From positions 70,351 to 134,350 of the forward strand of contig CAZNRH010000002.1 in NCBI GenBank assembly GCA_964575755.1: DNA of 64,000 nt, read 5' to 3'. The translations under genes were made by a program, and so were the position numbers. The stretch is from an uncultured Candidatus Saccharibacteria bacterium (lineage in GTDB: Bacteria > Patescibacteriota > Minisyncoccia > Phycocordibacterales > JABMNX01). A model generated the notes under the pieces. It had not been told where the DNA came from. It saw only the letters and a list, made by a program, of their open reading frames with translations, and did no database searches. Positions 6,353-59,329 of this stretch are shown here, piece after piece. How positions within the stretch are numbered: position 1 is the stretch's first letter; the number at the start of each line of letters is the position of its first letter.

Positions 6353-7187
6353 ATTTCAACTTAAAATATACCTTATTACCAAAACGTAGATCTATGTATT
6401 CTATGTCTTCTGTATTCTTTTCTCTAAATGTTTCTGAATCGAGAACGACAGTAAGGTTATCGAGCACCTCAGACGATCCTTGTTTTCTTGTGAAGATAAT
6501 CTTACTCTCACCTTCTAGATAAAGCTCCATATTTGAGACACCTACTGTGTGTAATTCGATAGGTATAACCTCTAACTTTTTAAGTGAATCAATAAGAGTG
6601 TTCATTTTATTAAATTCGTCGTTTATTTTTAAATAATACTTACCTACATAATCTGGACCTATTAAATCTCCATAAAAACGCATGAAGACATTACCCGTAA
6701 AGTTGGGTGCTTTCGAGAATACAAACCCTTCCGTATTAATGAAATAACAATCCTCTGTTAATTCACTACTTTTATCAGTACACCAAAGAGCATACGGCTT
6801 CTGCTCCTCTATTTCCATGGATAAAGTTTGAAGGTCAGTACGCACGATATCAACTGACTCAATTTGCTTAAATGTGGTTAAGATAGAAGACTCTATCTCT
6901 TCTTCTGGAAAAATTAAACTGTTTGTACGCGGAAATAATAAAAAATATTTTCCACCCTCAAGAACCTCTTCTGTAACATCTTTTATTCTTGAGTCTGAAA
7001 TAACACTACTTCCATTTATAACAATATTGTTTATCTGCAAGTATGGACGATACGATACCCACGAACCTAAACCTATTAAAAGTATAATGACGACCACGCT
7101 ACCAACAATTTTCCATAAAAAAGATCTACGCCTACGTTTAGCAAGTCTTTCTGGTCGTGCTACTTTACATCTCCTAAACCACTTCAT
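6351..7187 (-). CDS. ftsQ: cell division protein FtsQ/DivIB-like
   Basis: Basic cytoplasmic N-terminus, one TM helix, POTRA-like region (VDIVRTDLQTLSMEIEEQKPYALW). Confidence 0.7.
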   Translation of the reverse strand: MKWFRRCKVARPERLAKRRRRSFLWKIVGSVVVIILLIGLGSWVSYRPYLQINNIVINGSSVISDSRIKDVTEEVLEGGKYFLLFPRTNSLIFPEEEIESSILTTFKQIESVDIVRTDLQTLSMEIEEQKPYALWCTDKSSELTEDCYFINTEGFVFSKAPNFTGNVFMRFYGDLIGPDYVGKYYLKINDEFNKMNTLIDSLKKLEVIPIELHTVGVSNMELYLEGESKIIFTRKQGSSEVLDNLTVVLDSETFREKNTEDIEYIDLRFGNKVYFKLK

Positions 7188-7299
7188 CCCGTACGAAATA
7201 GGACACGGACTAATGTTGCCATTGTCCTAAAGTTAAATCCTCTGTTAATTATCGACTTATTTTCCATATATTATGTTTGTATCCATGATTTCGTACGGG
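7188..7299 (-). repeat. start-codon-abutting inverted-repeat element (copy a, upstream of ftsQ) with internal 27-aa micro-ORF
   Basis: Arms cccgtacgaaataggacacgga and tccatgatttcgtacggg are complementary. The element ends exactly at the ftsQ ATG. Internal ORF MENKSIINRGFNFRTMATLVRVLFRTG spans 7184-7267 on the minus strand. Its TGA overlaps the ftsQ ATG as ATGA. Confidence 0.75.
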
Positions 7300-7306
7300 A
7301 TTTATA

Positions 7307-9476: not shown

Positions 9477-9524
9477 CTGTCTTAACATTTGACAGATGGT
9501 TATACTTACTGTAAATATATATTC

Positions 9525-9662
9525 CTATGAATCCCGTTAGAGATAAGTCCTCCAGAGGAGACTGTCGGACACTGGGACGATATATACAACAATATAAAAT
9601 ATTATTAACACATTTAATTTTAGGACAAAGGTTGTTTACATCGGTGTCCTATCTCTAACAGG
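9525..9662 (+). repeat. start-codon-abutting inverted-repeat element (copy upstream of topA, no micro-ORF)
   Basis: 5' motif ctatgaatcccgttagagataag. 3' arm ggtgtcctatctctaacagg is immediately followed by the topA ATG. Arms pair (cccgttagagata / tatctctaacagg). Confidence 0.7.
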
Positions 9663-14974: not shown

Positions 14975-15056
14975 GCTGGAGTGGTGGAATTGGTATACAC
15001 GTACGACTCAAAATCGTATGCCGCAAGGCTTGAGGGTTCAAGTCCCTCCTCCAGCA
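14975..15056 (+). tRNA. tRNA-Leu (anticodon CAA)
   Basis: Acceptor GCTGGAG/CTCCAGC. Anticodon stem TACGA/TCGTA with loop CTCAAAA. Long variable arm. Discriminator A. Confidence 0.8.
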
Positions 15057-15078: not shown

Positions 15079-15115
15079 GGACTCAAAATCGTGTCTCGCA
15101 AGGGATGAGGGTTCG
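15079..15115 (+). pseudogene. partial degenerate copy of the tRNA-Leu(CAA) anticodon-to-T-arm region
   Basis: gactcaaaatcgt and tgagggttc are identical to the tRNA 22 nt upstream. The rest has diverged. Confidence 0.55.
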
Positions 15116-27125: not shown

Positions 27126-27209
27126 GCCGGGATGGTGGAATTGGTATACACGCAACACTTAAAATGTTGTGGGCGTAAGCCCATGCGGGTTCAACTCCCG
27201 CTCCCGGCA
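27126..27209 (+). tRNA. tRNA-Leu (anticodon UAA)
   Basis: Acceptor GCCGGGA/TCCCGGC. Anticodon stem CAACA/TGTTG with loop CTTAAAA. Long variable arm. Discriminator A. Confidence 0.8.
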
Positions 27210-27222
27210 CAAAGAGAAATGA

Positions 27223-27256
27223 ACCTCGTCTGAGAAGACGAGGTGATTTTCTTTTG
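27223..27256 (+). terminator. terminator after tRNA-Leu(UAA)
   Basis: Stem acctcgtct/agacgaggt followed by gattttctttt. Confidence 0.6.
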
Positions 27257-27258
27257 TA

Positions 27259-27388
27259 GCCGGGAGCGGGAGTTGAAAGACGGAAGCGGTATACAAGATG
27301 CGTAGTGAAACGGAGCAGGCTTGTCGCTGAGTCGGGGTCGAGAGTACTTAGTGCATAGCACTTAGTAACTCGTGACCAACTCCCGCTT
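27259..27388 (+). repeat. tRNA-linked AGACGGAAGC element (unit A)
   Basis: Starts with the reverse complement of the tRNA-Leu(UAA) 3' end (gccgggagcgggagttgaa). Then aagacggaagc. Core gctgagtcggggtcgaga. Ends ttagtaactcgtgacc plus a copy of the tRNA T-arm 3' strand (caactcccgct). Confidence 0.6.
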
Positions 27389-28218: not shown

Positions 28219-28300
28219 GCGCGAGTGGCGAAATTGGTAGACGCGCTAGTCTTAGGAACTAGTGGGGCAACCCATGGAGGTTCAAGTCCTCTCTCGCGCA
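28219..28300 (+). tRNA. tRNA-Leu (anticodon UAG)
   Basis: Acceptor GCGCGAG/CTCGCGC. Anticodon stem CTAGT/ACTAG with loop CTTAGGA. Long variable arm. Discriminator A. Confidence 0.85.
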
Positions 28301-28345
28301 CAGTGTCTATTTTTTATAGAACATAGTAAAAGGTATCGCAAGATG

Positions 28346-28373
28346 TGGAGGTTCAAGTCCTCTCTCGCGCACA
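28346..28373 (+). repeat. exact 28-nt direct copy of the tRNA-Leu(UAG) 3' end
   Basis: tggaggttcaagtcctctctcgcgcaca is identical to 28275-28302, with a 43-nt spacer. Confidence 0.8.
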
Positions 28374-28422: not shown

Positions 28423-28812
28423 TTAAAAAGAAACATTATCATTATAATGAGAATAAAAGTTACCACCTCCACTTCCTCTCCTCTCTATCACACCTGGTAT
28501 AATCACATTTTGATCCTGTACACTAAAAGTAGATTGGAGCATTCTAATCAATCCCCAAATTGAAACCATTACAAAAAGAGCAATAATTCCATATATCATA
28601 ATGTCTCGCCCTTCGGATTTTTTATCCTCACTTCCTTGATTAAATATGAACTGAGCCAACCCCCAGAAGAAATAAAGCACTGCAAGAGCTAGTACCAACG
28701 GAATTGCCGTATTTATTAAGCTAGAAAAAGTACCCATCACAGCTTCCAAACTTTGAGCACTAGCCACTAGTGGCATAATAAGCAATCCTAACGCCACAAA
28801 AAATGTTTTCAT
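28423..28812 (-). CDS. TrbC/VirB2-like pilin-type small membrane protein
   Basis: Signal peptide MKTFFVALGLLIMPLVASA followed by two TM helices (AIPLVLALAVLYFFWGLAQ and IMIYGIIALFVMVSIWGLIRML). Confidence 0.6.
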   Translation of the reverse strand: MKTFFVALGLLIMPLVASAQSLEAVMGTFSSLINTAIPLVLALAVLYFFWGLAQFIFNQGSEDKKSEGRDIMIYGIIALFVMVSIWGLIRMLQSTFSVQDQNVIIPGVIERRGSGGGNFYSHYNDNVSF

Positions 28813-29095: not shown

Positions 29096-29431
29096 TTACC
29101 TCTTTACTTCCTTAGGAATAATAACAGTCTGATCTGTTACACTAAAAGTAGATTGGAGCATTCTAATCAATCCCCAAATTGAAACCATTACAAAAAGAGC
29201 AATAATTCCATATATCATAATGTCTCGCCCTTCGGATTTTTTATCCTCACTTCCTTGATTAAATATGAACTGAGCCAACCCCCAGAAGAAATAAAGCACT
29301 GCAAGAGCTAGTACCAACGGAATTGCCGTATTTATTAAGCTAGAAAAAGTACCCATCACAGCTTCCAAACTTTGAGCACTAGCCACTAGTGGCATAATAA
29401 GCAATCCTAACGCTACAAAAAATGTTTTCAT
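29096..29431 (-). CDS. TrbC/VirB2-like pilin, near-identical paralog of 28423-28812
   Basis: Start set at MKTFFVALG. The first ~100 codons are ~99 percent identical at DNA level to the paralog. The C-terminus differs. Confidence 0.6.
   Translation of the reverse strand: MKTFFVALGLLIMPLVASAQSLEAVMGTFSSLINTAIPLVLALAVLYFFWGLAQFIFNQGSEDKKSEGRDIMIYGIIALFVMVSIWGLIRMLQSTFSVTDQTVIIPKEVKR
29131..29431. repeat. ~300-bp segmental duplication (partner 28510-28812)
   Basis: Near-identical DNA over about 300 bp. Only isolated single-base differences were seen. It covers the 5' parts of two pilin genes. Confidence 0.8.
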
Positions 29432-29933: not shown

Positions 29934-30350
29934 TTATCCAGTTAAAAGTCCGATAGTGTTTCTTACAATAATTGCCAATGTCCAAGAACCAAGGAATAAG
30001 GCTACCCCAATAATTGTATAGTAAAAAGTCTTCTTAGCTTCTTCAATCTTTGTTACATTACCCTGTGCTGTAACAAAAAGGAATCCAGAATACACAATAG
30101 ACAACACCGCTATTGGAAGTCCTATATTAATAACTGCCTTTAGAAGCAACTCAACAAATTTTTCAAAGCTATAGATACCGCTATTTTCTAATGGGTTTTC
30201 TAAACCAGCTGCAAGTGCATATGGTACTGTAACCATAAAAAAGAAAATAAATGTTGTTAATGTTTTTTGAATCCCATACGAAATAGGACACGGACTTATA
30301 GTATTTTTATCCACAAGTATAGATTTTATATTAATTGTCAACTTTTTCAT
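29934..30350 (-). CDS. TrbC/VirB2-like small membrane protein (start uncertain; N-terminus reads through a repeat element)
   Basis: Two TM helices (INIGLPIAVLSIVYSGFLF and IIGVALFLGSWTLAIIV). The ATG at 30350 lies in the loop of element copy b. An alternative ATG lies at 30236. Confidence 0.5.
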   Translation of the reverse strand: MKKLTINIKSILVDKNTISPCPISYGIQKTLTTFIFFFMVTVPYALAAGLENPLENSGIYSFEKFVELLLKAVINIGLPIAVLSIVYSGFLFVTAQGNVTKIEEAKKTFYYTIIGVALFLGSWTLAIIVRNTIGLLTG

Positions 30351-30393
30351 TTTTATTATAATTTTAATGTCCGTGATTTCGTACGGGACTAAT
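30272..30393 (-). repeat. inverted-repeat element (copy b) between the SBP-like gene and the pilin gene
   Basis: Arms atcccatacgaaataggacacggac and gtccgtgatttcgtacggga. An in-frame ATG in the internal loop (MKKLTINIKS...) is homologous to the micro-ORF of copies a and c. Confidence 0.7.
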
Positions 30394-30395
30394 AC

Positions 30396-31703
30396 TTATC
30401 TTAGCAAATTTTGTAACTCTTTATGGGCAGTACTTACTGACTCACTCGTCCTCAGTCTACCAGAAACAACTGACTCTATCATTAGTTTAAATATTTCATC
30501 TGTCTTGCTTACACTGGGGTCGAGCCAAGCACGAGACTGAAGCGCTGCGTCGGCAAAAATAACTTTAAATGGATCCGATGGCCTGTTGGCTAACAATGAC
30601 CTTGATACTGGAGATAGGCCTGTCTTTTCTGACATATCCTGCAAGACCGAGTCAGACGTAAGTGCAAAAGCTATCTGCATTGCTCCTGCAATATTCTTTG
30701 ATGTTCTTGGAATCGCTAAGCCTGTAATATTTCCAAAGGTAATATTATTGTTACTACTTCGAACCTGCGGAACAAGAGCGACATCGAAATTTAAGTTGGC
30801 GTTTTTTTCTCTTATAGATGAAAGCTCGCTCGCAAAACCTACGTAGTTAGAAAGTATTCCGGATACAAAGGCTTGTTTTGATTCTGGTAATGCACGGTTC
30901 CATGTATAAATGGTCTTTGTGGGGTTTGCAAAATCTGTATAAAAACGGAGAGCATTCTCAGCAGGCACCTGTCCATCACTTAATTGACGAACTAGCCCCG
31001 AAGACAAAGAACCGTTACTTCCAACTAATACTAAATCACCCCCTGCCTGCAGTATCAACATCGAGAGTAACTCTTTTGCATGTGCAATGTTTTGATACTC
31101 TCCAATTGACAAAGCGCTTTTAAATATTTCCCCACTGTCACCACGTGTTGTTAATGAACCATTAAGAGCAAACGACACTATCTCATCCCAAAACCGTGGC
31201 GGTCGAGATATTCCAGCTTGAGAATAATGATCCCTGTTCCAATAAAGAACCAACGGGTCAACAGTGAAAGGAAGGGCGGTAATACCATTCCCACTTAAAA
31301 ACAATTCTGCTTCTTGAATAAAAGCATCTTTAAACTCACGCTGTGACATAACGTCATATGAAATTGGATAAATCTTATCCCCGTGCCTTAAAATAGTGTC
31401 TTGGCTTAAGAAAAACAAATCAGGACCTCTCTGAGACGCAAGGGCTTCTACTAATTCCTCATCAAAAAAACGTACATCTTTTTCAATATATGTAACTTGG
31501 TCAAAACGGTCATCGTTAAATGAAGCCTCTCTTATGAGTGCCTCCATAACCTTGTCGTCATACGTACCCCAAATCACTACCTCGCCTACATTAGCGCCGC
31601 CACCTCCAAACCCGCCAACACCAGCAAAGAGCATCACTCCAACCACTGTAAAAAATATAAAGGCTCCAGTAACAACTATTTTAAATACGCTTAATTTATT
31701 CAT
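30396..31703 (-). CDS. membrane-anchored extracellular solute-binding-protein-like protein
   Basis: N-terminal TM/signal anchor, Gly-rich linker, then a periplasmic-binding-protein-like pattern (VVIWGTYDDKVMEALI...). Weak assignment. Confidence 0.4.
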   Translation of the reverse strand: MNKLSVFKIVVTGAFIFFTVVGVMLFAGVGGFGGGGANVGEVVIWGTYDDKVMEALIREASFNDDRFDQVTYIEKDVRFFDEELVEALASQRGPDLFFLSQDTILRHGDKIYPISYDVMSQREFKDAFIQEAELFLSGNGITALPFTVDPLVLYWNRDHYSQAGISRPPRFWDEIVSFALNGSLTTRGDSGEIFKSALSIGEYQNIAHAKELLSMLILQAGGDLVLVGSNGSLSSGLVRQLSDGQVPAENALRFYTDFANPTKTIYTWNRALPESKQAFVSGILSNYVGFASELSSIREKNANLNFDVALVPQVRSSNNNITFGNITGLAIPRTSKNIAGAMQIAFALTSDSVLQDMSEKTGLSPVSRSLLANRPSDPFKVIFADAALQSRAWLDPSVSKTDEIFKLMIESVVSGRLRTSESVSTAHKELQNLLR

Positions 31704-31823
31704 CCCGTACGAAATAGGACACGGACTTAAACAGCCCTTGTCTCTATGTTTAATATTCTATTAATTATCGACTTATTTATCATATATTGTTTCTGTGTCC
31801 GTGATTTCGTACGGGATTCATAG
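31704..31823 (-). repeat. start-codon-abutting inverted-repeat element (copy c) with an 18-aa micro-ORF
   Basis: Arms cccgtacgaaataggacacggac and gtccgtgatttcgtacggg with an outer attcatag motif. Micro-ORF MINKSIINRILNIETRAV spans 31727-31783 on the minus strand. The element ends exactly at the ATG of the 30396-31703 gene. Confidence 0.75.
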
Positions 31824-49552: not shown

Positions 49553-50149
49553 TTATGTATCAGACTTCCTGTCACTATTTTCTTCTCTATGTTTAAGCTC
49601 ACGACCCCATATATCCGCATTTACTTTTAAAACATCCGTGTATCCATCGGCGCCAGTCCGTAATTCTTGTGAAATATTATTTCTTGAAGAATATATAAAT
49701 ACCTTTTTCCCAGCATTTCTTATGTATCTAATGAGACCAAGAAAATCTGAATCACCAGTAAAAAATATCGCTATATCATAATTATTTTTGTTATGTATAG
49801 CGTCAATAGTTATCTCAACGTCCATATCACCTTTTTCTTGTATTACACCACCCTCTTCTGTTGAAATGTTTATCCTTTTTAATTGTTTTTTGCGTACATT
49901 AAAATTAAGACCTTTTTTAAGATATGTATAAAATTTATGCTTACCATCTAAACTATAATCTCTGGTTCCTTTTGCTGGGTATGCTGTATAATAGAAAACT
50001 TCCAAATGTTTTGTCTTATGTTCATCTCTTAAATAACTCTTTAACTTCTCATAATCAAAAGTCATACCTTTAGCTTTTTGGGCTTGCCATATATTAGAAG
50101 CATCTATAAAAACATACGCAGTATTCGTTTGTTTATCTTTTCTAAACAT
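49553..50149 (-). CDS. NYN/LabA-like (PIN-like) domain protein
   Basis: AYVFIDASN...GDMDVEITIDAI...IAIFFTGDSDFLGLIRYIRNAGKKV. Confidence 0.7.
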   Translation of the reverse strand: MFRKDKQTNTAYVFIDASNIWQAQKAKGMTFDYEKLKSYLRDEHKTKHLEVFYYTAYPAKGTRDYSLDGKHKFYTYLKKGLNFNVRKKQLKRINISTEEGGVIQEKGDMDVEITIDAIHNKNNYDIAIFFTGDSDFLGLIRYIRNAGKKVFIYSSRNNISQELRTGADGYTDVLKVNADIWGRELKHREENSDRKSDT

Positions 50150-51833: not shown

Positions 51834-53318
51834 CTAAAGTTCTTTTAATTTCTTGTAGATTTCTACCATAGCAAGAGTATCTAGCTCACAATACTTTAAC
51901 AGGTTTTCTCGTGTCTTTTCAATATCTCCTTGTTGCATGTCCCTTTTTATCATCTTCTCCCACTCACTGAGTGCCATTGTACCATCTTGAATATCCAAAC
52001 TCTTATATGAAAGCTCTGGCAGAAGTACTGGTAGAACTTTTTTAATAGAAGCACTTCCCTTAAACTCTGGGTCCAAGTAATCTTTCTTAAATACCTTCAT
52101 CAAGTCAAACACCCTGCTATTTATATCCTCCAAAAAGCTCCTGTCTTCAGGATGAAGCTCCATAAGCTCCATATTTCTAGCCTTCTCAAAGCTCTCATAC
52201 CACACCACAACACTGCCCACGGGGCCTATATGAGCCTTGAGAGTGTCTACTAAGCTTTTTGTAGCGCCTGCGAGTTTATCAGCTAAATACTCAAAATGCT
52301 CAAGTTTACCATCTTCACTTAGTTTATGTATAGAGACCTGAAATACAAGCTGTTGATTCGTCTTGTATCGATCAAGTAGAGGTATCGGTGAGCCGTACGT
52401 CTCATAATCTAAGAAATATATAGGGAATACTAATTCAGACAGTGTCTTTTCAATAGCCTCCTTATTAATTCGAGGTCTTCCAGAAACCTGCAAGCTTACT
52501 TTGTCATTTTGAATATCAGTTAAGTCAAAACCCTCTGGAATATCTTTAATATTCACAATTCCATCTGCTAAAAGTAATCGGAGTTTATTACCCGCTACAA
52601 TATGGTGCACCGAGTATTCAGGTACTTGAGGGTTAAATTTAAAGAAAGAGTCGCATCTCTGGCCATGTGTTTTGTAGAGGCACTCACATCCCTCAAGCAA
52701 TATGTCGTCTTTGTCTAAAGTTTCGAGAGCGACTTTGATTTCATCTCGCACCACATCCTTTTGTTCTGTTACTGTATCTGTTATATTTTCAATTACAAAA
52801 AGCTGTTTAATGTCCACCTCCCCACTCCTCCTATATTTCTTATTAATATATACGATGTAGCTGTCGCCGACTTCGACTCCAGCATCCTCCACCACAATAG
52901 TCTGAAAGACGACGTCTTTAATATGATTGTGTTTTAAATCTGTTTTTATTTCAGAGCTCGCTTTGATCTCGTACAAGTCCCACTTGGAAGTTTCCTTATT
53001 AAAATTAAGCATATCAACTTTAGCGAAAAGCCCCTGCTTTGTTTCAAATGTAGCTTGAAAAATTGGCTTCTTATCATTTTCTTTGTCCTTAAGAAGCTCT
53101 TTTGTCTTCGACAAAAGAGCTTCCTTGTCTCCAGACACGAAAACACCATCAGGAAAAAGCTTCTGCACATACGACTCAACCTCGTATCCATCTTTTATAA
53201 GTTTCTTAAGGAAAAGAGAAAACTCCCCCGCCACATACTCCTCCGGACGTTTCTTCTTCAACCACAAGCTCTTCCCACACAACAACCACTCCTTAAATTC
53301 TGTCTTAGTCAGTTTCAT
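51834..53318 (-). CDS. DUF2779-like nuclease: N-terminal Cas4/RecB-type PD-(D/E)xK domain with Cys cluster plus C-terminal DEDD-like 3'-5' exonuclease domain
   Basis: DLYEIKAS...CECLYKTHGQRCDSFF (nuclease with Fe-S-like cysteines). YFLDYETYGSPIP (Exo I-like) and YCELD (Exo III-like). Confidence 0.6.
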   Translation of the reverse strand: MKLTKTEFKEWLLCGKSLWLKKKRPEEYVAGEFSLFLKKLIKDGYEVESYVQKLFPDGVFVSGDKEALLSKTKELLKDKENDKKPIFQATFETKQGLFAKVDMLNFNKETSKWDLYEIKASSEIKTDLKHNHIKDVVFQTIVVEDAGVEVGDSYIVYINKKYRRSGEVDIKQLFVIENITDTVTEQKDVVRDEIKVALETLDKDDILLEGCECLYKTHGQRCDSFFKFNPQVPEYSVHHIVAGNKLRLLLADGIVNIKDIPEGFDLTDIQNDKVSLQVSGRPRINKEAIEKTLSELVFPIYFLDYETYGSPIPLLDRYKTNQQLVFQVSIHKLSEDGKLEHFEYLADKLAGATKSLVDTLKAHIGPVGSVVVWYESFEKARNMELMELHPEDRSFLEDINSRVFDLMKVFKKDYLDPEFKGSASIKKVLPVLLPELSYKSLDIQDGTMALSEWEKMIKRDMQQGDIEKTRENLLKYCELDTLAMVEIYKKLKEL

Positions 53319-53364
53319 TTTGTTAGTTTACCACACAGCCTAAAAACCGCTCTCCCAAGCCCAA

Positions 53365-53396
53365 CCCGCCTCGCAAGCGAGAGCGTTGCAGGCAGG
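53365..53396. repeat. left copy of a perfect 32-bp direct repeat bracketing the R-M cassette
   Basis: cccgcctcgcaagcgagagcgttgcaggcagg is identical to 57768-57799. Confidence 0.85.
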
Positions 53397-53675
53397 CAAA
53401 TTAAATGCCCCAACCCATGTGGGGCATTTAATTCTTATCTTTCCCCCGTTTCTCTTCCCTCTGTCTTGAAACTAAGTCTTCTACACTCTTACGACTCGTA
53501 AAATACGCCCCAAGCGCAGCACCCACAACAGCAACAATAATTAAAATAAGGATATTCATGGTTTTATTTTAGCATGACACCACAAAAACCTCCCCCGCAA
53601 TAGAAGGTGTTGTGGACAGGCAAAATAAACAGCCAGAGTACTCATGCTATTTAATTTTTATATTCTGGCAAAAAA

Positions 53676-54359
53676 TTATTTTTCTATATCTGATATGATC
53701 TGCCTTCTAAAAGCAGTCAGTCTTTTACCTCCCATTTTTTCATATACACTTAGTTCCACATGATGTTTTTTACACAAAAAACAAAGACTATTTTTCTTTG
53801 AATGTAGATGTATGTACTGTAATAATATTTTATATACGTCGTATTTCTCTGTACCAGAAATGTATCCGTGGTCACATGCTATCTTCAAATTATCCGGTCT
53901 ACTTTTTTGAAGGTGTACTGTATCTAAATCATTCCTATTGCACTCTGGGAACTGACAAGTTGTCACAATCTTCTTTAATGGACTAAAAAAACTTTGAGTT
54001 ATATTGCGGACTTCACCTGACAACATAGTAAGCACCTTTAAATCTGAGTTTGTAACAATATAAATGTCTCTATATTTCTCAAAAAACTTTGGCTTAGTAG
54101 ACTTAAAAATAATATCAACTTTTTTTCTATCTTGAGCGACCATAATACCTTTAATAATCGCCAAGCTCTCTTGTTTACGAAAACAAAATAGCTTATTTTT
54201 GTCTTTATCTTGAATATTATATTTTTTAAGTATTTTCCACGACTTGAATCCTTTACTATTTACTGAATCATGTCCAAGCATATTATCAAGCTGCCTAGTT
54301 GACAGGCCTGATTTCAAGAAATGTAGCAAAACATCTTTATCTTTAGTATTAAATTTCAT
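53676..54359 (-). CDS. HNH-type endonuclease-like protein
   Basis: CQFPEC...LDTVHLQKSRPDNLKIACDHGY...CFLCKKHH has an HNH-like H/N/H arrangement with flanking Cys pairs. Start set at the internal Met (MKFNTKD). Confidence 0.5.
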   Translation of the reverse strand: MKFNTKDKDVLLHFLKSGLSTRQLDNMLGHDSVNSKGFKSWKILKKYNIQDKDKNKLFCFRKQESLAIIKGIMVAQDRKKVDIIFKSTKPKFFEKYRDIYIVTNSDLKVLTMLSGEVRNITQSFFSPLKKIVTTCQFPECNRNDLDTVHLQKSRPDNLKIACDHGYISGTEKYDVYKILLQYIHLHSKKNSLCFLCKKHHVELSVYEKMGGKRLTAFRRQIISDIEK

Positions 54360-54581
54360 AGTATTAATATACTCGTTTACCAAGTAAAACAAAACCAACT
54401 AGTGATACATAGGTTGCCATTACCTCACTTGTCAAGTTTTATAACAAGCCAACAGAGTAATAAGTACGAGTTGTAGAAGAAAAAAGCGTGTTTAATACAA
54501 AAAAACGAGCAATTACCGTGTTATCATTTATGGTATATCAAAAAGAGAAAATTGATATAATCAATTATATAAAATAACTTT

Positions 54582-56435
54582 ATGCAAAAAGATTTAGAGA
54601 AAACTTTAAATAATTATAGTCCTTTTATTATTGAAACAGCTCTTGTTCAATTATTTATTGACTCTAATAATTTAACTGTAAAAAAAAATGAACTTATTAG
54701 ATCTCTACTAGAAAATAAAAGTGAAGAAATTCTGAAAGCTAAGGAGTTTCTAATAAACAAGATAGAAACAAAAAATATAATCGACTTTGTAAATATATTT
54801 GAATTACTAATTCCTTTAGATGATAAAAAAAATAACGGAGCCTTCTTTACTCCGTCAAATATTACTGATTTTATAGTTTCTGAAACAATAGACTCAAGAT
54901 CTCAGAGAATTCTAGACCCTAGTTGCGGGTGTGGCGCTTTCCTTATCTCTGCCACAGACTTTATTGCAAAAAAATATAATAAGAGTGTCACGAAAACAAT
55001 TGAAGAAAATATATTTGGAGTGGACATAGCAAAATACAGCATAAAAAGAGCTAAAATTCTTCTTTCGCTTCTCGCTCTTAAAAATAATGAGGATAAAAAA
55101 GAAATAAAATTCAATCTTAAAACAAAAGACAGTTTGACGACTGACTGGAAAAAATTATTTCCAGAAATAAAAAATGGGTTCGACGTGGTTATAGGTAATC
55201 CTCCTTATGTTAAATTCCAAGACCTTAACGAAGACCTAAGGAAAAGTCTGTCTAAAAATTGGCAAACCCTAAATACTGGAAATTATAATCTTTATTTTGC
55301 CTTCTTTGAGTTAGGAATTAGTGTTATGAAAAATACTGGAGTACTTGGTTATATTACACCTAACAACTATTTTACTTCCTTAGCGGGAATTCATCTCAGA
55401 GAATTCCTAGAATCTAATAGGTTAATAGAAAAAATTATTGATTTCAACCACTTTAAAGTTTTTGATGCTCAAACATATACAAGTATAAGTTTTTTAAGTA
55501 AAGGTAATAACGTATCTTTCGATTATGAAAAAATCGATGACTGTGCGAAATTAAATTCATTAAAAAAATTACAATACTCGAAAATAAATTTTAGTGATTT
55601 AAATAATAAAAAATGGCGACTTCTACGTCATGGTGATCAAGAGAATATAAAAAAAATTGAAAATATAGGTAGAAAACTAGGAGATATAGTAAAAATTAGA
55701 GTTGGAGTAGCTACATGCAAAGATTCTGTGTACTTTGTGGACGGTTCAACTTTTGATGGAAAATATTTACATAAATCATACAACGGGAAGGATTATTTTA
55801 TTGAAAAAGACATTACTCAATCAATAGCAAAAATTTCTGACTTTAAAGCACAAGATGACCTAGGCGAAAACAATCGAAGAATAATTTTCCCTTATAGAAA
55901 AAAAAATAGAAACGTAGAAATCATTGAGGAAGATAAGTTAAAAAAAAAATACCCTTATTGTTATAAGTATCTTATGGCTGCTAAGTCAGAACTGGCATCA
56001 AGAGACAAGGGAGCTGTTAATTATCCAGAATGGTACGCCTACGCAAGAACCCAAGGACTTAATTTTTTAGGGAAAAAGCTACTTACTCCAACATTCAGCT
56101 CTAAGCCAAGGTTTCTGCTTGAAAAGAATGAAAATACACTATTCTGTAACGGATATGCTATTTACTTAGACAATAGACCGTCTTTATTTTACAAAACTGA
56201 ACAAAAATTAAATCTGTCCATTCTTAGCAAAATACTCAATTCGTCTATAATGGAATACTACATTAAACAAACTAGCGTATCTATTGATGGTGGGTACCCA
56301 TGCTATCAAAAGAATTTTATTGAACTGTTAGGAATTCCGGACTTCACCTCAAACGAACTAGGTTACTTAAACAGGGAAAAAGATGGAAAATTAATTAATG
56401 ATTTTTTAACAGGTAAATACGGTGTGCAAATCTAG
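54582..56435 (+). CDS. N6-adenine DNA methyltransferase, Eco57I-like (gamma-class) with C-terminal target-recognition region
   Basis: Motif I ILDPSCGCGAFL. Motif IV VIGNPPYV. Preceded by FFTPSNITDFIV. Confidence 0.85.
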   Translation: MQKDLEKTLNNYSPFIIETALVQLFIDSNNLTVKKNELIRSLLENKSEEILKAKEFLINKIETKNIIDFVNIFELLIPLDDKKNNGAFFTPSNITDFIVSETIDSRSQRILDPSCGCGAFLISATDFIAKKYNKSVTKTIEENIFGVDIAKYSIKRAKILLSLLALKNNEDKKEIKFNLKTKDSLTTDWKKLFPEIKNGFDVVIGNPPYVKFQDLNEDLRKSLSKNWQTLNTGNYNLYFAFFELGISVMKNTGVLGYITPNNYFTSLAGIHLREFLESNRLIEKIIDFNHFKVFDAQTYTSISFLSKGNNVSFDYEKIDDCAKLNSLKKLQYSKINFSDLNNKKWRLLRHGDQENIKKIENIGRKLGDIVKIRVGVATCKDSVYFVDGSTFDGKYLHKSYNGKDYFIEKDITQSIAKISDFKAQDDLGENNRRIIFPYRKKNRNVEIIEEDKLKKKYPYCYKYLMAAKSELASRDKGAVNYPEWYAYARTQGLNFLGKKLLTPTFSSKPRFLLEKNENTLFCNGYAIYLDNRPSLFYKTEQKLNLSILSKILNSSIMEYYIKQTSVSIDGGYPCYQKNFIELLGIPDFTSNELGYLNREKDGKLINDFLTGKYGVQI

Positions 56436-57235
56436 AAAATATCTTTACTCCCGAATCTTTTAGTATAAATATCTAACATATCTTTTGTAAATCCACTTAT
56501 TGTAAGATTTTTCAAGTTGACTTTTGTGTTTTTAGAAACCAACCCATCCATCTTCAACTCTTTAATTGAAGAATAAAGTTTAGGGCTTTTTTTTCTGAAA
56601 TCAACAATTAAAAGACAGACTCTTTCATATTTATACTCGTTTCCTTTTATAGAATGTCTGTTATTAATGGCTTGAAACATTCGTATGTATTCTTCTATAT
56701 TTGAAACTGACTTGAATTCTACTTTATTTTGCAACATTGCTTTATCATCATATTCGTGAGTAGGTATTAAGTATACTTCTCCCATACACTGTTTAGGATG
56801 ATTTAAATGTAAGTTTAAAGCTTCTGCAAACGTTCTCTCATATAAAGTGTCAATGTTTTTCTTTAAGCTACTTAATTGACTACGTACATTAACGCTAATA
56901 ATCCTTTTTATTCTAGGATCATCAGTATTAGTTATAGGTATCAACTCAATATTAGGAATAATGACGATGTCTTGGTTTTTTGACTTTAAAAACCCTTTGA
57001 TTTTAATCTCAGGACTAGATTCTCCAACTGGTGGAAAAATCTTTTGTGATTGAACTTTATTTTCTACAAAATCTCTTTTTATAAAATCATGAATAATATT
57101 TATTATTTTTTGGGAACGAATTAAAGCTTCTTTGGCTTTATGTCCATTTTCATATGTATTACCATTAAACTTCGAAGTGGTAATTGCTTCGTCATAATCT
57201 TTCTTTATTTTTTTGAGAACCTGTTGTATTGTCAT
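56432..57235 (-). CDS. candidate restriction endonuclease partner (unclassified)
   Basis: 267-aa ORF convergent with and overlapping the methyltransferase stop. Possible PD-D/ExK-like D...E(V)K segments. No firm family assignment. Confidence 0.35.
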   Translation of the reverse strand: MTIQQVLKKIKKDYDEAITTSKFNGNTYENGHKAKEALIRSQKIINIIHDFIKRDFVENKVQSQKIFPPVGESSPEIKIKGFLKSKNQDIVIIPNIELIPITNTDDPRIKRIISVNVRSQLSSLKKNIDTLYERTFAEALNLHLNHPKQCMGEVYLIPTHEYDDKAMLQNKVEFKSVSNIEEYIRMFQAINNRHSIKGNEYKYERVCLLIVDFRKKSPKLYSSIKELKMDGLVSKNTKVNLKNLTISGFTKDMLDIYTKRFGSKDIF

Positions 57236-57346
57236 AATTATCTTAAAACTACGTTAAAAGGTATACTCCCACAAAATATAGCTAAAATCAATGAAAAAAC
57301 AAATCTCCCCGAGGTTAAACCTCGGGGAGTATACAAGTATTCTTGA

Positions 57347-57685
57347 CTAAGATCTGGGAGTATTATTTTTTAAATAACCGTCCATAATTCTAGTTAACCG
57401 AAGTGCTTTGCGACGCAATCTTTTTGTTTTTATACGTGAGAGAGCATCTAAAAACTCTATAAGAGAACTATCTATTTTTTTGACGGCAATTTCTAAAGAT
57501 TCATTTACGCTTATGAAATCTGTTACTTCATTTAGAAGAATCTTCCTTCTAGCTATTATTTCATTCACCACCAACTTCGAACAGTTAATAGGGGTTGACG
57601 TGGAGATGAGACCACGAGTTGATCCTCTACTAAAGTTCACCTTAAGAACACTGCTACTTGTTCTCATGACAGGTTTCCTTTCCAT
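57347..57685 (-). CDS. hypothetical protein
   Basis: 112-aa ORF inside the DR-bracketed cassette. Confidence 0.35.
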   Translation of the reverse strand: MERKPVMRTSSSVLKVNFSRGSTRGLISTSTPINCSKLVVNEIIARRKILLNEVTDFISVNESLEIAVKKIDSSLIEFLDALSRIKTKRLRRKALRLTRIMDGYLKNNTPRS

Positions 57686-57767
57686 TACTGTTTATTATTC
57701 CAGTCTCTCTAATCTAAAAGTACCACGTTTAATCATTTAATCAATGAAATTAAATAGTAGTACCCCG

Positions 57768-57799
57768 CCCGCCTCGCAAGCGAGAGCGTTGCAGGCAGG
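57768..57799. repeat. right copy of the 32-bp direct repeat bracketing the R-M cassette
   Basis: Identical to 53365-53396. Confidence 0.85.
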
Positions 57800-58372
57800 T
57801 CTGGTTGTTTAATTTTTGTGTAATTTGAGTAGTTTTAAGCGTTTTTGTATCAACTGAATGTCGTCGGACGACCCTCAGCACAAACCTTGATATTTCTATC
57901 TGTAATATAAACCTATTACGCCAAACAAAGGAGCTAACTCACTCAATCTTTGATCTAAATACCCATCTAGAGACGAATTGCATGATAACCTCCCTTTATA
58001 TCACCACGTGACAACACTATCTGCCAAAGACTGAATAATCGATACTACATCAATATTTATTTTTGCAAGAGAAAGCCAGTCTTTTTGAATCTGTTCATGG
58101 GTTGTGCCAGTCAACTCTTCGAGTTCGGAGAACAATGAGTCTAAAGAAATCTTTCCAACATCAGCTGGTTGTAGGTACTCATCTTTCAGTCTGTATGCTT
58201 TTTCTTTCGGAAAAAACCTTTAAAACTAAATTGGTACAACTTCAGAACAAATAACACCGAAGAAGTCGAAGGCAATATTTTTTTATTAATGCTCATATGT
58301 TTAATTTTAACGCAACCAACACAAGTGTGATACTCGCTTGTCAACAAGCTACCTCGTGCTAGCTCTAAGTTG

Positions 58373-58459
58373 CGGAGATGAGAGGATTCGAACCCCTGAT
58401 ACGGTTTCCCGTATGCCACTTTTCGAAAGCGGTGCCTTCAACCACTCAGCCACATCTCC
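58373..58459 (-). tRNA. tRNA-Ser (anticodon CGA)
   Basis: Acceptor GGAGATG/CATCTCC. D-arm GCTG-AGTGGTTGAA. Anticodon loop TTCGAAA. Long variable arm. Discriminator G. Confidence 0.8.
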
Positions 58460-58558: not shown

Positions 58559-58633
58559 GGCCCTATCGTCTAACGGTTAGGACATCAGGTTTTCAATCTG
58601 GTAATCAGAGTTCGATTCTCTGTAGGGTCACCA
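58559..58633 (+). tRNA. tRNA-Glu (anticodon UUC), CCA encoded
   Basis: Acceptor GGCCCTA/TAGGGTC. TC-GTCT...GGAC D-arm as in E. coli tRNA-Glu. Anticodon loop TTTTCAA. T-arm CAGAG-TTCGATT-CTCTG. Confidence 0.7.
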
Positions 58634-58776: not shown

Positions 58777-59109
58777 TTAAAAACTTCTAATGGTGTTTTC
58801 CAACCCAAACGCTTCCTTGGGCGTGTATTCTACCATAGCTAATTCTTCCTCTGACACTTTGGTGAAGTCCGTACCTTTTGGATGGTAATCTCTCAGTAAT
58901 CCATTGGTATTTTCATCACTACCTCTCTCACTAGAGCAGTAGGGATGACAGAAGTATGTATTTGTATTGAGTTGAGTCTCAATATCGCGCCATCCTGCAT
59001 TTTCACTACCGTTATCAAACGTAATAGTATGTGTAGGGAGTGATTGTAGACGTTTCACAATAGCTTCTGTAGTCGCGGTACTCCCTTGTTCGTAAAGTTT
59101 AGTAATGGT
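58777..59109 (-). pseudogene. IS30-family transposase remnant (C-terminal ~110 aa only)
   Basis: ITFDNGSENAGW...YFCHPYCSSERGSDENTNGLLRDYHPKGTDF matches the IS30 DDE C-terminal block. No N-terminal HTH or DD region. The ORF-track version is fused to unrelated opposite-strand sequence. Confidence 0.6.
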
Positions 59110-59329
59110 AGAGCTTGGTAACGAAAATAGAACTCTTGTATACGAAGTAACAGTAGGAACACAAGAAGTCAAAGTAGATGCAGGCAATGGGTCTGTGCTA
59201 CACATTGGTAACGATGACAATGAAAAAGAATCCGCAGAGTCAGAAGAATCTGAATCTGAAAAAGGTGGAGACTTTGACAAAAATGGCATCGATCACCAGT
59301 TTGAAGGAGAGGAAGAGCATACTGATTAA
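59105..59329 (+). pseudogene. PepSY-like domain fragment with acidic tail (truncated gene remnant)
   Basis: LVYEVTVGTQEVKVDAGNGSVL resembles a PepSY repeat. No upstream coding continuation; it abuts the IS30 remnant. Confidence 0.35.

What the first reader, a model, noticed from the sequence alone, without database searches (positions are those of the whole stretch)
53365..57799. Restriction-modification cassette bracketed by a perfect 32-bp direct repeat
The 32-mer cccgcctcgcaagcgagagcgttgcaggcagg occurs at 53365-53396 and 57768-57799. The ~4.4 kb in between contains exactly four genes: an HNH-like nuclease (-), an Eco57I-like N6-adenine methyltransferase (+), a convergent overlapping candidate endonuclease (-), and a 112-aa ORF (-). 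Perfect long direct repeats around a self-contained R-M unit are the footprint of a mobile cassette, or of its insertion site duplication. The cassette lies beside a DUF2779 two-nuclease protein, two tRNAs and an IS30 remnant. Together these form a defence or mobile hot spot. The pairing of an HNH protein and a separate uncharacterised nuclease with a gamma-class methyltransferase may be an undescribed R-M architecture.
Basis: seen in the sequence. Interest (0 to 1): 0.7.

Follow-up and report, generated by a model that had tools for sequence, protein, structure and literature searches.

The report
R-M genes between tiny hairpin repeats
The perfect 32-bp repeat is real, but it is two copies of a 36-base GC-rich hairpin element that also occurs in unrelated bacteria and a phage, sometimes in-frame inside genes; it therefore probably does not mark the edges of the otherwise ordinary restriction-modification gene pair it flanks.

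Summary
The genes between the copies are mostly as described: a gamma-class Eco57I-like m6A methyltransferase, a convergent PD-(D/E)XK type II restriction enzyme overlapping it by 4 bp, an HTH-HNH protein and a small helical ORF.

The repeat is not specific to this cassette. It is the core of a 36-nt GC-rich hairpin unit, here called E. Its 22-24-nt core occurs exactly in 12 unrelated genomic contexts (GC 0.30-0.54), and a near-exact variant occurs in a Mu-like phage contig. E sits as a precise 12-codon insertion in enolase and lies in-frame in Kdo transferase, Fpg, a secretin and GemA. It is also found nested in the loops of other hairpins.

In the window, copy 2 lies inside a terminator loop. 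Copy 1 lies just after a terminator and has an ortholog in the closest relative found. The same R-M family elsewhere lacks E.

The R-M unit is ordinary and sits in a variable spot upstream of DUF2779. The more interesting object is the cross-phylum 36-nt element. An insertion-related duplication at E is not excluded.

The parts
51834..53318 (-). DUF2779 protein (Cas4-like N-terminal nuclease plus RNase H-like C-terminal domain). It is a conserved Patescibacteria gene and the anchor of the variable spot.
   Evidence: Pfam DUF2779 4e-34 and RNase_H_2 3e-4. PADLOC Cas4 9e-8. 3593 homologs, the best ones from Kaiserbacteria and Yonathbacteria.
53361..53396 (-). E1, copy 1 of the 36-nt GC-rich hairpin element. 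E1 lies immediately after terminator T' and 42 nt upstream of the DUF2779 start codon.
   Evidence: Exact match. Covariance model 60.3 bits. Folds as a hairpin. Positional ortholog at L016:393-428 with 4 differences.
53399..53433 (.). Terminator hairpin T' (AATTAAATGCCCC...GGGGCATTTAATT). It is bidirectional in form and overlaps the stop codon of the 43-aa ORF.
   Evidence: Terminator scan. Fold.
53428..53559 (-).
   Evidence: ORF list. Called as a gene in GCA_006243245.1. Only weak family hits.
53585..53620 (-). Degenerate third copy of E (62% identity), directly after terminator T.
   Evidence: the repeat finder D7. blastn of L016:350-420 against 53663-53593 gives 83% identity and runs through it. 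Alignment.
53623..53657 (.). Terminator hairpin T (AAATAAACAGCCAGAGTACTCATGCTATTTAATTT). It belongs to the same family as 2742-2776 and L016:357-392.
   Evidence: the repeat finder D8 and I1. blastn about 89-91% identity to the L016 terminator.
53676..54359 (-). HTH-HNH protein (227 aa; an alternative TTG start at 54398 would give 240 aa).
54582..56435 (+). Gamma-class N6-adenine DNA methyltransferase (Eco57I/TaqI-like, GNPPY motif) with a TaqI_C specificity domain.
   Evidence: Pfam. PADLOC MTase_II 7e-145. Translation.
56432..57235 (-). Type II restriction endonuclease with the PD-(D/E)XK fold, convergent with the methyltransferase and overlapping it by 4 bp.
57305..57329 (-). Intrinsic terminator between the 112-aa ORF and the restriction enzyme gene.
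   Evidence: Terminator scan: 11-bp stem with 8 GC pairs, then a T-run.
57347..57685 (-). Small helical protein of 112 aa (106 aa from the second Met). Its function is unknown and it is not an HTH controller protein.
   Evidence: No hits in Pfam, NCBIfam, PADLOC or PHROGs. Only five other small proteins (68-99 aa) among 1.84 billion representatives reach E values of 1e-6 to 1e-3. They share the C-terminal motif PLRRKSLRLARIMDGYL.
57746..57763 (-). Remnant of the loop and 3' half of a T-type terminator (GTACTAC TATTTAATTT), now separated from its 5' half by E2.
   Evidence: Read from the sequence and compared with the intact L016 terminator AGCCAGA GTACT CTGGCTATTTAATTT.
57764..57799 (-). E2, copy 2 of the 36-nt element. 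It is identical to the consensus unit found in L008, L009, L010 and L014, and it is inserted in the loop of a T-type terminator.
   Evidence: Exact match. Covariance model 61.6 bits, the same score as the four foreign loci. Context.
57800..57864 (-). 5' half of the split terminator (57800-57814) plus an upstream region homologous to L016:307-372.
   Evidence: 50 of 65 positions identical. Alignment score 35 against a maximum of 31 in 18268 control windows. blastn.
58372..58459 (-). tRNA-Ser(CGA). Its 3' end points toward the cassette, but no repeat of that 3' end exists in the window.
   Evidence: ARAGORN and Rfam. Repeat search negative.
58559..58633 (+). tRNA-Glu(TTC).
58777..59289 (-). IS30-family transposase remnant. 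Only the C-terminal part of the catalytic domain matches.
   Evidence: NCBIfam transpos_IS30 4.2e-30, profile positions 163-258 of 267.

Best explanation
The 32-bp direct repeat is two copies of a 36-nt GC-rich imperfect-palindrome element, here called E, with consensus CCCGCCCGCCTCGCAAGCGAGAGCGTTGCAGGCAGG.

E is a dispersed miniature element, not a feature of this cassette. The same unit occurs with unrelated flanks in other bacteria and in a Mu-like phage contig. It appears as a precise 36-nt insertion without target duplication, often in the loop of a pre-existing hairpin or in-frame in a coding gene.

In this Patescibacteria genome the two perfect copies have separate histories:
- E1 sits right after a terminator upstream of DUF2779 and is shared with the closest relative found.
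- E2 is identical to the consensus and sits inside the loop of another terminator.

What lies between them is a horizontally acquired but ordinary type II R-M pair (gamma m6A methyltransferase plus PD-(D/E)XK endonuclease, with no controller gene). It is accompanied by a stand-alone HTH-HNH nuclease (probably an independent McrA-like or nicking defence nuclease), a small unknown ORF and a 43-aa ORF. All of this lies in a spot upstream of DUF2779 that holds different R-M systems in related genomes.

Inferred, not shown: E is moved in trans by a strand-specific enzyme that recognises single-stranded hairpin DNA, which would explain its preference for hairpin loops and the same-strand pairs.
For: Shown by tool results:

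1. The 24-nt core occurs exactly in 3 GTDB genomes titled Syntrophobacter, Desulfobacteraceae and Gammaproteobacteria. The 22-nt core occurs in 9 JGI metagenome contigs. Flanks are unrelated and GC ranges from 0.30 to 0.54. My own estimate of the chance expectation for a 22-24-mer in these collections is below 0.1.

2. A variant of E occurs twice in viral contig L035.

3. The full 36-mer is identical in the window's E2 and in L008, L009, L010 and L014.

4. E is a precise 12-codon insertion in enolase: L003 shows a 12-residue gap against L005. E also lies in-frame in Kdo transferase, Fpg, a GspD-type secretin and GemA.

5. E lies in hairpin loops or nested in diverged relatives of itself in L003, L007 and L008. 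A filled-versus-empty comparison shows no duplication: the window reads CCAGA|E2|GTACT, while the intact terminators at L016:357-392, 53623-53657 and 2742-2776 read CCAGAGTACT or its variant.

6. E1 and the L016 copy both follow ...ATTTAATTTG and precede a similar short leader. They differ at 4 of 36 positions, in line with flank divergence, whereas E2 has no changes from the consensus.

7. The homologous R-M (70% identical restriction enzyme) in another Paceibacterota lineage sits between RNase R and rpsP as HTH-controller/R/M and has no E.

8. In L035 the pair of E copies brackets only part of gemA, so pairs of E do not delimit gene cassettes.

9. Orientation relative to neighbouring genes differs between loci (L011 against the window; Fpg against the other coding hosts). 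This argues for a DNA-level element.
Against: 1. All three E-like copies in the 64-kb window lie within this 4.4-kb stretch. L011 also has two direct copies around a single NYN gene, with 65 nt of shared sequence. This clustering suggests local duplication linked to gene gain.

2. L016 looks like an 'empty site'. Its one copy has a left flank matching the outer flank of E2. Its right flank matches the outer flank of E1, although that flank on its own is weak (p about 0.01).

3. Copy number in the source genome is unknown and appears low. Only 12 exact-core contexts were found in very large collections, so 'generic' means dispersed across genomes, not abundant.

4. No mobilising enzyme was identified, and the mechanism is inference.

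5. Taxon labels of the metagenome-assembled genomes were not independently checked.
Confidence: 0.6

Rival explanations
1. The cassette reading. The R-M/HNH block, possibly in two steps together with the 43-aa ORF, entered at a resident E site by site-specific recombination or by 'insertion with long target duplication'. This left one E on each side, acting like attL and attR, so E1 and E2 are products of the insertion.
For: The single L016 module (upstream region, terminator, E, leader) matches three places in the window, with the outer flanks matching on the correct sides. All E copies in the window cluster here. The R-M genes have low GC. R-M units flanked by direct repeats of 24-423 bp are a documented mobile form (PMC2853133). 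L011 shows a gene bracketed by 65-nt direct repeats that contain E.
Against: E2 sits inside the terminator loop, while E1 and the L016 copy follow the terminator, so the two junctions are not the two halves of one duplicated target. Identity between the copies stops at the 36-nt element. There is no recombinase or integrase in or next to the block; the only mobility gene is a truncated IS30 1 kb away. The same element lies in unrelated genomes and inside genes. The same R-M family elsewhere has no E. Furuta et al. explicitly set aside flanking repeats that are multi-copy elements. The genes downstream of the module differ between L016 (lipase operon) and the window (DUF2779), so L016 is not a clean empty site.
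Confidence: 0.22
2. E is part of a repeated cis-acting module (terminator, GC hairpin and leader) that functions in RNA, for example as a 5' stabilising hairpin or a processing or attenuation site for the downstream minus-strand genes. The copies arose by duplication of that regulatory module.
For: E folds better on the minus (coding) strand because of G-U pairs: -24.4 kcal/mol with z -4.3, against -22.1 kcal/mol with z -1.65 on the plus strand. In the window and in L016 it always lies after a terminator and ahead of a minus-strand gene. Parts of the terminator and leader are repeated together with it.
Against: The same unit occurs in-frame inside five different coding genes, in either orientation, and in organisms with unrelated flanks. 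In L011 the opposite strand of E is the coding strand. There is no Rfam match. Stem variation gives no clean covariation for either pairing register.
Confidence: 0.1
3. E is a technical artefact, such as a linker, a spike-in or an assembly chimera, that recurs in metagenome assemblies.
For: All occurrences are in metagenome-derived sequences. There are no matches in cultivated-organism plasmids or phages and none in the literature.
Against: The flanks are contiguous on both sides: an exact 12-codon insertion in enolase and an exact insertion in a hairpin loop. The same locus was recovered from different samples with a point difference in E (L003 and L012 against L006). There is an orthologous copy with 4 substitutions in an independent assembly, L016. 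E is not located at contig ends.
Confidence: 0.03

Closest known systems
R-M gene complexes flanked by direct repeats ('insertion with long target duplication', Furuta, Abe & Kobayashi 2010, PMC2853133)
   Same: A type II R-M pair with foreign base composition sits between direct repeats longer than 20 bp. A related genome shows one copy of the repeat.
   Different: Here the repeat is a dispersed 36-nt element rather than a duplicated piece of the local target. The two copies occupy different positions relative to the adjacent terminators. No clean empty site was found.
REP / REPIN elements mobilised by RAYT (Y1 HUH) transposases
   Same: A 20-40-nt GC-rich imperfect palindrome that forms a hairpin and is often found next to terminators. 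Clusters and same-strand arrangements occur.
   Different: E has no conserved GTAG or CGTC tag. It is low-copy, lies inside coding genes, and has an identical core in organisms of different phyla, whereas REPs are abundant, extragenic and lineage-specific. No RAYT gene was seen.
Small dispersed repeats (SDR) of Nostoc and related cyanobacteria (Elhai et al. 2008; from my own knowledge, cited in PMC3116915)
   Same: Very small elements (tens of nucleotides) inserted without target duplication, nested within copies of themselves and within hairpin contexts. No encoded function.
   Different: SDRs are 21-27 nt, abundant and confined to one cyanobacterial subgroup. E is 36 nt, rare, and spread over unrelated bacteria and a phage.
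Rickettsia palindromic elements (RPE) and mitochondrial GC clusters or 'byp' elements
   Same: Palindromic selfish DNA that survives as in-frame insertions in conserved protein-coding genes, including GC-rich hairpins in AT-rich genomes.
   Different: RPEs are 100-150 nt and restricted to Rickettsia. GC clusters and byps are mitochondrial. E adds exactly 12 codons and is found across bacterial phyla.
Integron gene cassettes and attC sites
   Same: Genes are separated by same-orientation imperfect palindromes with bulged bases. The array lies ahead of a fixed gene.
   Different: There is no IntI integrase and no RYYYAAC/GTTRRRY core sites. The unit is 36 nt rather than 57-141 nt. The methyltransferase is on the opposite strand. 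The element also occurs alone inside genes.

Membership tests
Type II restriction-modification system | N6-adenine (gamma-class) DNA methyltransferase with SAM-binding and NPPY catalytic motifs plus a target-recognition domain | tested here: met
   Pfam Eco57I 6.5e-35, N6_Mtase 9.5e-24 and TaqI_C. GNPPYV is visible in the translation. PADLOC MTase_II 7e-145.
Type II restriction-modification system | A separate restriction endonuclease gene adjacent to the methyltransferase, with the pairing conserved in other genomes | tested here: met
Type II restriction-modification system | Sequence-specific methylation and cleavage activity | not testable with these tools
   This needs methylome sequencing or expression of the enzymes.
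R-M inserted with long target duplication, or integrated by site-specific recombination | Both flanking repeats align with one copy in an empty-site genome whose flanks are otherwise collinear | tested here: inconclusive
   L016 has one copy. Its left flank matches the outer flank of E2 (50 of 65 positions). The right flank matches only over about 20 nt. The downstream genes differ.
R-M inserted with long target duplication, or integrated by site-specific recombination | The repeat is local target sequence, not a multi-copy dispersed element | tested here: not met
   The core is found in 12 unrelated contexts, and a near-exact variant in a viral contig. The identity between E1 and E2 ends at the element.
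R-M inserted with long target duplication, or integrated by site-specific recombination | For the recombinase route: an integrase or recombinase in the unit, or a tRNA 3'-end repeat | tested here: not met
   No such domain was found in the ORFs from 51 to 61 kb. There is no repeat of the tRNA-Ser 3' end.
REP/REPIN (RAYT-associated) | A 20-40-nt imperfect palindrome | tested here: met
   Hairpin folds. Alignment of copies.
REP/REPIN (RAYT-associated) | Conserved GTAG or CGTC tetranucleotide at one end, with high extragenic copy number in the genome | tested here: not met
   There is no conserved tag in the aligned flanks. Only three copies occur in 64 kb. Some copies lie inside coding genes.
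REP/REPIN (RAYT-associated) | A cognate RAYT (Y1 transposase) gene in the genome | not tested
   The whole source genome was not available, and the window's ORFs were not all scanned.
Integron cassette array | An IntI tyrosine recombinase and attC sites with R''/R' core sites | tested here: not met
   No integrase was found among the neighbouring ORFs. Inspection of the E sequence shows no RYYYAAC...GTTRRRY pair.
HNH (beta-beta-alpha-Me) endonuclease, for the 227-aa protein | The HNH fold with a catalytic His and two Cys pairs | tested here: met
R-M controller (C) protein, for the 112-aa ORF | A small HTH_3-type protein encoded immediately upstream of the restriction enzyme gene and co-transcribed with it | tested here: not met
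   No HTH family hit. A terminator separates it from the restriction enzyme gene. The homologous R-M has a genuine 71-aa HTH_3 gene at that position.

The most novel reading that the evidence does not exclude
E is a previously undescribed kind of very small mobile DNA. It is a 36-nt hairpin with no stop codon in any of the six reading frames, and it inserts precisely and without target duplication. Its targets include hairpin loops and even conserved genes, where it adds 12 residues. Its sequence is essentially unchanged across unrelated bacterial phyla and a transposable phage, which implies recent horizontal spread and a trans-acting machinery specific for hairpins or single-stranded DNA. 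Two same-strand copies might occasionally mobilise or shuffle the genes between them, as could be the case for this R-M block.
Probability: 0.35. Interest if true: 0.75.

Novelty: new variant of a known kind. Interest (0 to 1): 0.5.

Why it matters
**The original claim.** A perfect long direct repeat around an R-M unit is not enough to call a mobile cassette. The repeat has to be checked against other genomes first. Here the R-M pair is a common Patescibacteria family, and the HNH gene is a neighbour rather than a new architecture.

**The by-product.** This could matter more than the original claim. A 36-nt element shared by unrelated bacteria and a Mu-like phage is tolerated in-frame in enolase, Fpg, Kdo transferase, a secretin and GemA. 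If it is truly mobile, it would be among the smallest mobile DNAs known and one of the few that cross phyla.

**What it would give.**
- A tractable handle, in the form of filled and empty sites in metagenomes, on how hairpin-targeted insertion works.
- A way to study how small genomes such as those of Patescibacteria acquire and rearrange defence genes.

Tried and rejected
1. **Known RNA family.** Rfam gave no match at either copy, at gathering thresholds or at E values up to 10. L016:1-600 also gave nothing.

2. **tRNA-based island.** There is no repeat of the tRNA-Ser 3' end in the window. The ORFs at 57.8-58.4 kb gave only a weak DUF4224 hint (E 0.054).

3. **Empty site through identical proteins.** Exact look-ups of the flanking proteins returned only the same locus, GCA_006243245.1 and SRR6439370.

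4. **Empty site through DUF2779 homologs.**
   - The 91%-identical relative (L016) has one E but different gene order.
   - The 87% and 77% relatives have no E and carry another R-M system.

5. **E as part of this R-M family.** Rejected: L021-L028 lack it.

6. **E linked to the HNH family.** Rejected: there is no E in L030-L037.

7. **Further copies in the window.** A covariance model run with filters off found none beyond the three. The degenerate copy was part of the model's seed alignment, so its score is not independent evidence.

8. **Cultivated plasmids and phages.** blastn found nothing meaningful.

9. **Literature.** The sequence itself, and descriptor searches, found no description of the element.

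10. **The 112-aa ORF as a controller protein.** Rejected.

11. **Covariation support for one hairpin register.** Inconclusive on inspection of the alignment.

Full report
**1. Observation**

The 32-mer CCCGCCTCGCAAGCGAGAGCGTTGCAGGCAGG occurs exactly at 53365-53396 and 57768-57799 on the + strand. It occurs nowhere else in the window, even allowing three mismatches, and none were found in shuffled sequence. Similarity extends a few bases to the left, giving a unit of 36-37 nt at 53361-53396 and 57764-57799. A third, degenerate copy (62% identity) lies at 53585-53620. Base composition drops to 0.28-0.31 GC across 54-57 kb, against about 0.38 elsewhere.

**2. The genes**

- *Methyltransferase.* The ORF at 54582-56435 (+) is a gamma-class N6-adenine methyltransferase. 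It matches Pfam Eco57I, N6_Mtase and TaqI_C and PADLOC MTase_II at 7e-145.
- *The 112-aa ORF.* The ORF at 57347-57685 (-) has only five distant small relatives (68-99 aa) among 1.84 billion representatives. They share a C-terminal motif. It has no HTH, and an intrinsic terminator at 57329-57305 follows it. It is therefore not the controller gene that occupies this position in homologous systems.
- *Neighbours.* DUF2779, tRNA-Ser and tRNA-Glu and a truncated IS30 transposase are as described.
- *Organism.* DUF2779 homologs place the organism in Patescibacteria, near Kaiserbacteria and Yonathbacteria.

**3. The repeat is not private to this locus**

An exact scan for the central 24 nt in one genome per GTDB species found it in three metagenome-assembled genomes titled Syntrophobacter, Desulfobacteraceae and Gammaproteobacteria. 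The central 22 nt occurs in nine JGI metagenome contigs. A pattern allowing two variable positions found two copies in a GC-rich IMG/VR viral contig.

The flanks are unrelated, and locus GC ranges from 0.30 to 0.54. After merging contigs that share flanks, these hits make 12 contexts besides the window and the viral contig. My own estimate of the chance expectation for such words in collections of this size is well below one.

The shared unit is CCCGCCCGCCTCGCAAGCGAGAGCGTTGCAGGCAGG. The window's copy 2 is identical over all 36 nt to the copies in L008, L009, L010 and L014.

**4. What the element looks like**

- *Structure.* It folds as a GC-rich imperfect hairpin, somewhat better on the minus strand because of G-U pairs. 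It matches no Rfam family. By my translation it has no stop codon in any of the six frames, which is unsurprising at 75% GC.
- *Insertions in coding genes.* In L005 it is a precise 12-codon insertion in enolase: the L003 enolase shows a 12-residue gap at GDEGGYSP|ARLASESVAGAA|HNDPN. It also lies in-frame in a Kdo transferase (L010), a GspD-type secretin (L009), Fpg (L013, opposite orientation) and the GemA gene of the Mu-like viral contig (L035).
- *Insertions in hairpin loops.* In L007 it sits in the loop of another hairpin. In L003 and L008 it is nested inside diverged relatives of itself.
- *No target duplication.* Where the pre-insertion sequence can be inferred, nothing is duplicated. The window reads ...AACCAGA|E2|GTACTAC TATTTAATTT. 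The intact terminators of the same family read AGCCAGAGTACTCTGGCTATTTAATTT (L016:357-392) or close variants (53623-53657 and 2742-2776).
- *Orientation.* Orientation relative to neighbouring genes is not constant, which argues for a DNA-level element.
- *Prior description.* Neither the sequence nor descriptor searches found a description in the literature. Cultivated plasmids and phages lack it.

**5. History of the copies in this window**

The closest relative retrieved is L016 (GCA_964625905.1), whose DUF2779 is 91% identical. It has one copy, in the order upstream region, terminator, E, short leader, then a lipase-hydrolase-hydrolase-DUF2779 operon.

- *Copy 1.* It has the same position as the L016 copy: directly after ...ATTTAATTTG and before a similar leader. 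It differs from the L016 copy at 4 of 36 positions, about what the flanks show. Copy 1 is therefore old.
- *Copy 2.* It equals the consensus and splits a terminator in its loop. The sequence upstream of it is homologous to the L016 upstream region (50 of 65 positions identical; score 35 against a maximum of 31 in 18268 control windows).
- *The degenerate copy.* It follows a third terminator that is about 89% identical to the L016 terminator.

The two perfect copies therefore sit at non-equivalent positions: one in a loop, one after a hairpin. This is not what a single target duplication or a single crossover at E would give. I read copy 2 as a separate, younger insertion.

Two facts keep an insertion-linked duplication alive as a rival (0.22). 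First, all E-like sequences in 64 kb lie in this 4.4 kb. Second, L016 resembles an empty site.

Two further observations bear on pairs of copies:
- In L011, two direct copies 819 bp apart bracket a single NYN gene and share 65 nt.
- In L035, two direct copies 308 bp apart bracket only part of gemA. Pairs of E therefore do not in general delimit genes. Their shared orientation may reflect strand-specific insertion.

**6. The R-M unit and the 'new architecture'**

A 70%-identical restriction enzyme in another Paceibacterota lineage sits, in eight retrieved contigs, as HTH-controller then restriction enzyme, convergent with an Eco57I-like methyltransferase. That unit lies between RNase R and rpsP, with no HNH gene and no E. 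The R-M pair here is thus an ordinary mobile type II unit that lacks a controller gene.

The HTH-HNH family was found in four contexts:
- beside this gamma-m6A system;
- beside a C5 methyltransferase plus a 251-aa ORF, together with DUF2779, in Woesearchaeota;
- directly after a MutH-like restriction enzyme with a C5 methyltransferase and a serine recombinase;
- with no methyltransferase, next to a Schlafen-like helicase and MazG.

This pattern fits an independent defence nuclease that travels in defence islands, possibly McrA-like, rather than a subunit of this R-M system.

The hot-spot idea is supported. Relatives at 87% and 77% DUF2779 identity carry an Eco47II-type enzyme plus a C5 methyltransferase about 1-1.5 kb upstream of DUF2779.

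**7. Comparison with known systems**

R-M units flanked by direct repeats of 24-423 bp are documented. They are classified by whether the repeat aligns with a single copy in an empty-site genome, and multi-copy repeats are excluded from the class (PMC2853133). This locus fails the 'local target' criterion and is inconclusive on the empty-site criterion.

E itself is closest in behaviour to four known kinds of element:
- REP/REPIN elements, but E has no GTAG or CGTC tag, is low-copy, occurs inside genes and crosses phyla;
- the small dispersed repeats of cyanobacteria, which are nested and lack target duplication, but are 21-27 nt and confined to one clade (from my own knowledge; cited in PMC3116915);
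- Rickettsia palindromic elements, which insert in-frame in genes, but are 100-150 nt and confined to one genus;
- mitochondrial GC clusters.

E is not an attC site: there are no core sites and no integrase.

**8. Verdict**

The interpretation as a cassette footprint is probably wrong, and the architecture is ordinary. The by-product, a cross-phylum 36-nt hairpin element, is unusual enough to deserve a proper census. Unexplained extras are listed under the notes made in passing.

Noticed in passing
L003:4418-4453, L004:435-470, L005:215-250: Three of the 12 exact-core contexts of the 36-nt element are at the enolase locus. One is about 50 nt downstream of eno (L003, and likewise L006 and L012). 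One is about 50 nt upstream of eno, between pyruvate kinase and eno (L004). One is in-frame inside eno (L005). This is far more than random insertion would give, and orientation relative to eno is not constant.
   Followed up: partly
L005, L009, L010, L035 (frame PARLASESVAG) and L013 (reverse strand, CLQRSRLRGGQ): Four of the five in-gene copies of the element are read in the same frame and orientation, adding the peptide PARLASESVAG. This suggests either selection for a tolerated peptide or an orientation bias relative to transcription.
   Followed up: no
L035:683-718 and 991-1026 (IMGVR_UViG_3300029258_002569): A GC-rich viral contig encoding a Mu GemA homolog carries two direct copies of the element 308 bp apart. 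One is in-frame in gemA and one is just downstream. A transposable phage could be a vehicle for spread between hosts.
   Followed up: partly
window 7186-7306, 30271-30394, 31702-31822 (partial match at 9515-9544): A MITE-like repeat of about 120 nt with 14-nt terminal inverted repeats (ATCCCGTACGAAAT ... ATTTCGTACGGGAT). There are three copies, each lying at or just upstream of the 5' end of a gene.
   Followed up: no
window 28219-28373: tRNA-Leu(TAG) is followed, after 43 nt, by a perfect copy of its 3'-terminal 28 nt (28275-28302 and 28346-28373) and then a terminator. This looks like an att-type scar. A 300-nt repeat pair (28496-28795 and 29115-29414, 97% identity) lies just beyond.
   Followed up: no
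window 15005-15039 / 15080-15114 and 27190-27277: The 3' half of tRNA-Leu(CAA) is repeated 75 nt downstream at 86% identity. The 3' end of tRNA-Leu(TAA) is followed directly by its own inverted complement (42-nt arms, 83% identity).
   Followed up: no
L017:6861-8876, L019:2532-4549, L031:1972-6675, window 51834-57235: DUF2779 genes repeatedly have an R-M system within 1-3 kb on the same side, and the R-M types differ between genomes. This holds in Patescibacteria and in Woesearchaeota. The site is either a conserved integration hot spot or there is a functional link between DUF2779 and R-M systems.
   Followed up: partly
L036:4849-8990: A homolog of the HTH-HNH protein lies 15 nt after a MutH-like restriction enzyme gene. 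That gene is paired with a C5 methyltransferase. A large serine recombinase, a second methyltransferase and a HamA gene follow. This is a compact defence island in another Patescibacteria genome.
   Followed up: no
L016:1-295: A GC-rich, structured-looking stretch at the contig start ends in a tRNA-like 3' end (GATTCGAGTCCCGCCTCCTCCGCA) about 100 nt upstream of the element. It may be the 3' part of a tmRNA gene, but ARAGORN and Rfam did not call it.
   Followed up: partly
window 49553-50149 and L011:612-1127: NYN-domain genes occur near the element in both loci. In L011 the NYN gene is the one bracketed by two copies. In the window a NYN-like ORF lies 3 kb from copy 1; I identified it from its sequence only.
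   Followed up: no
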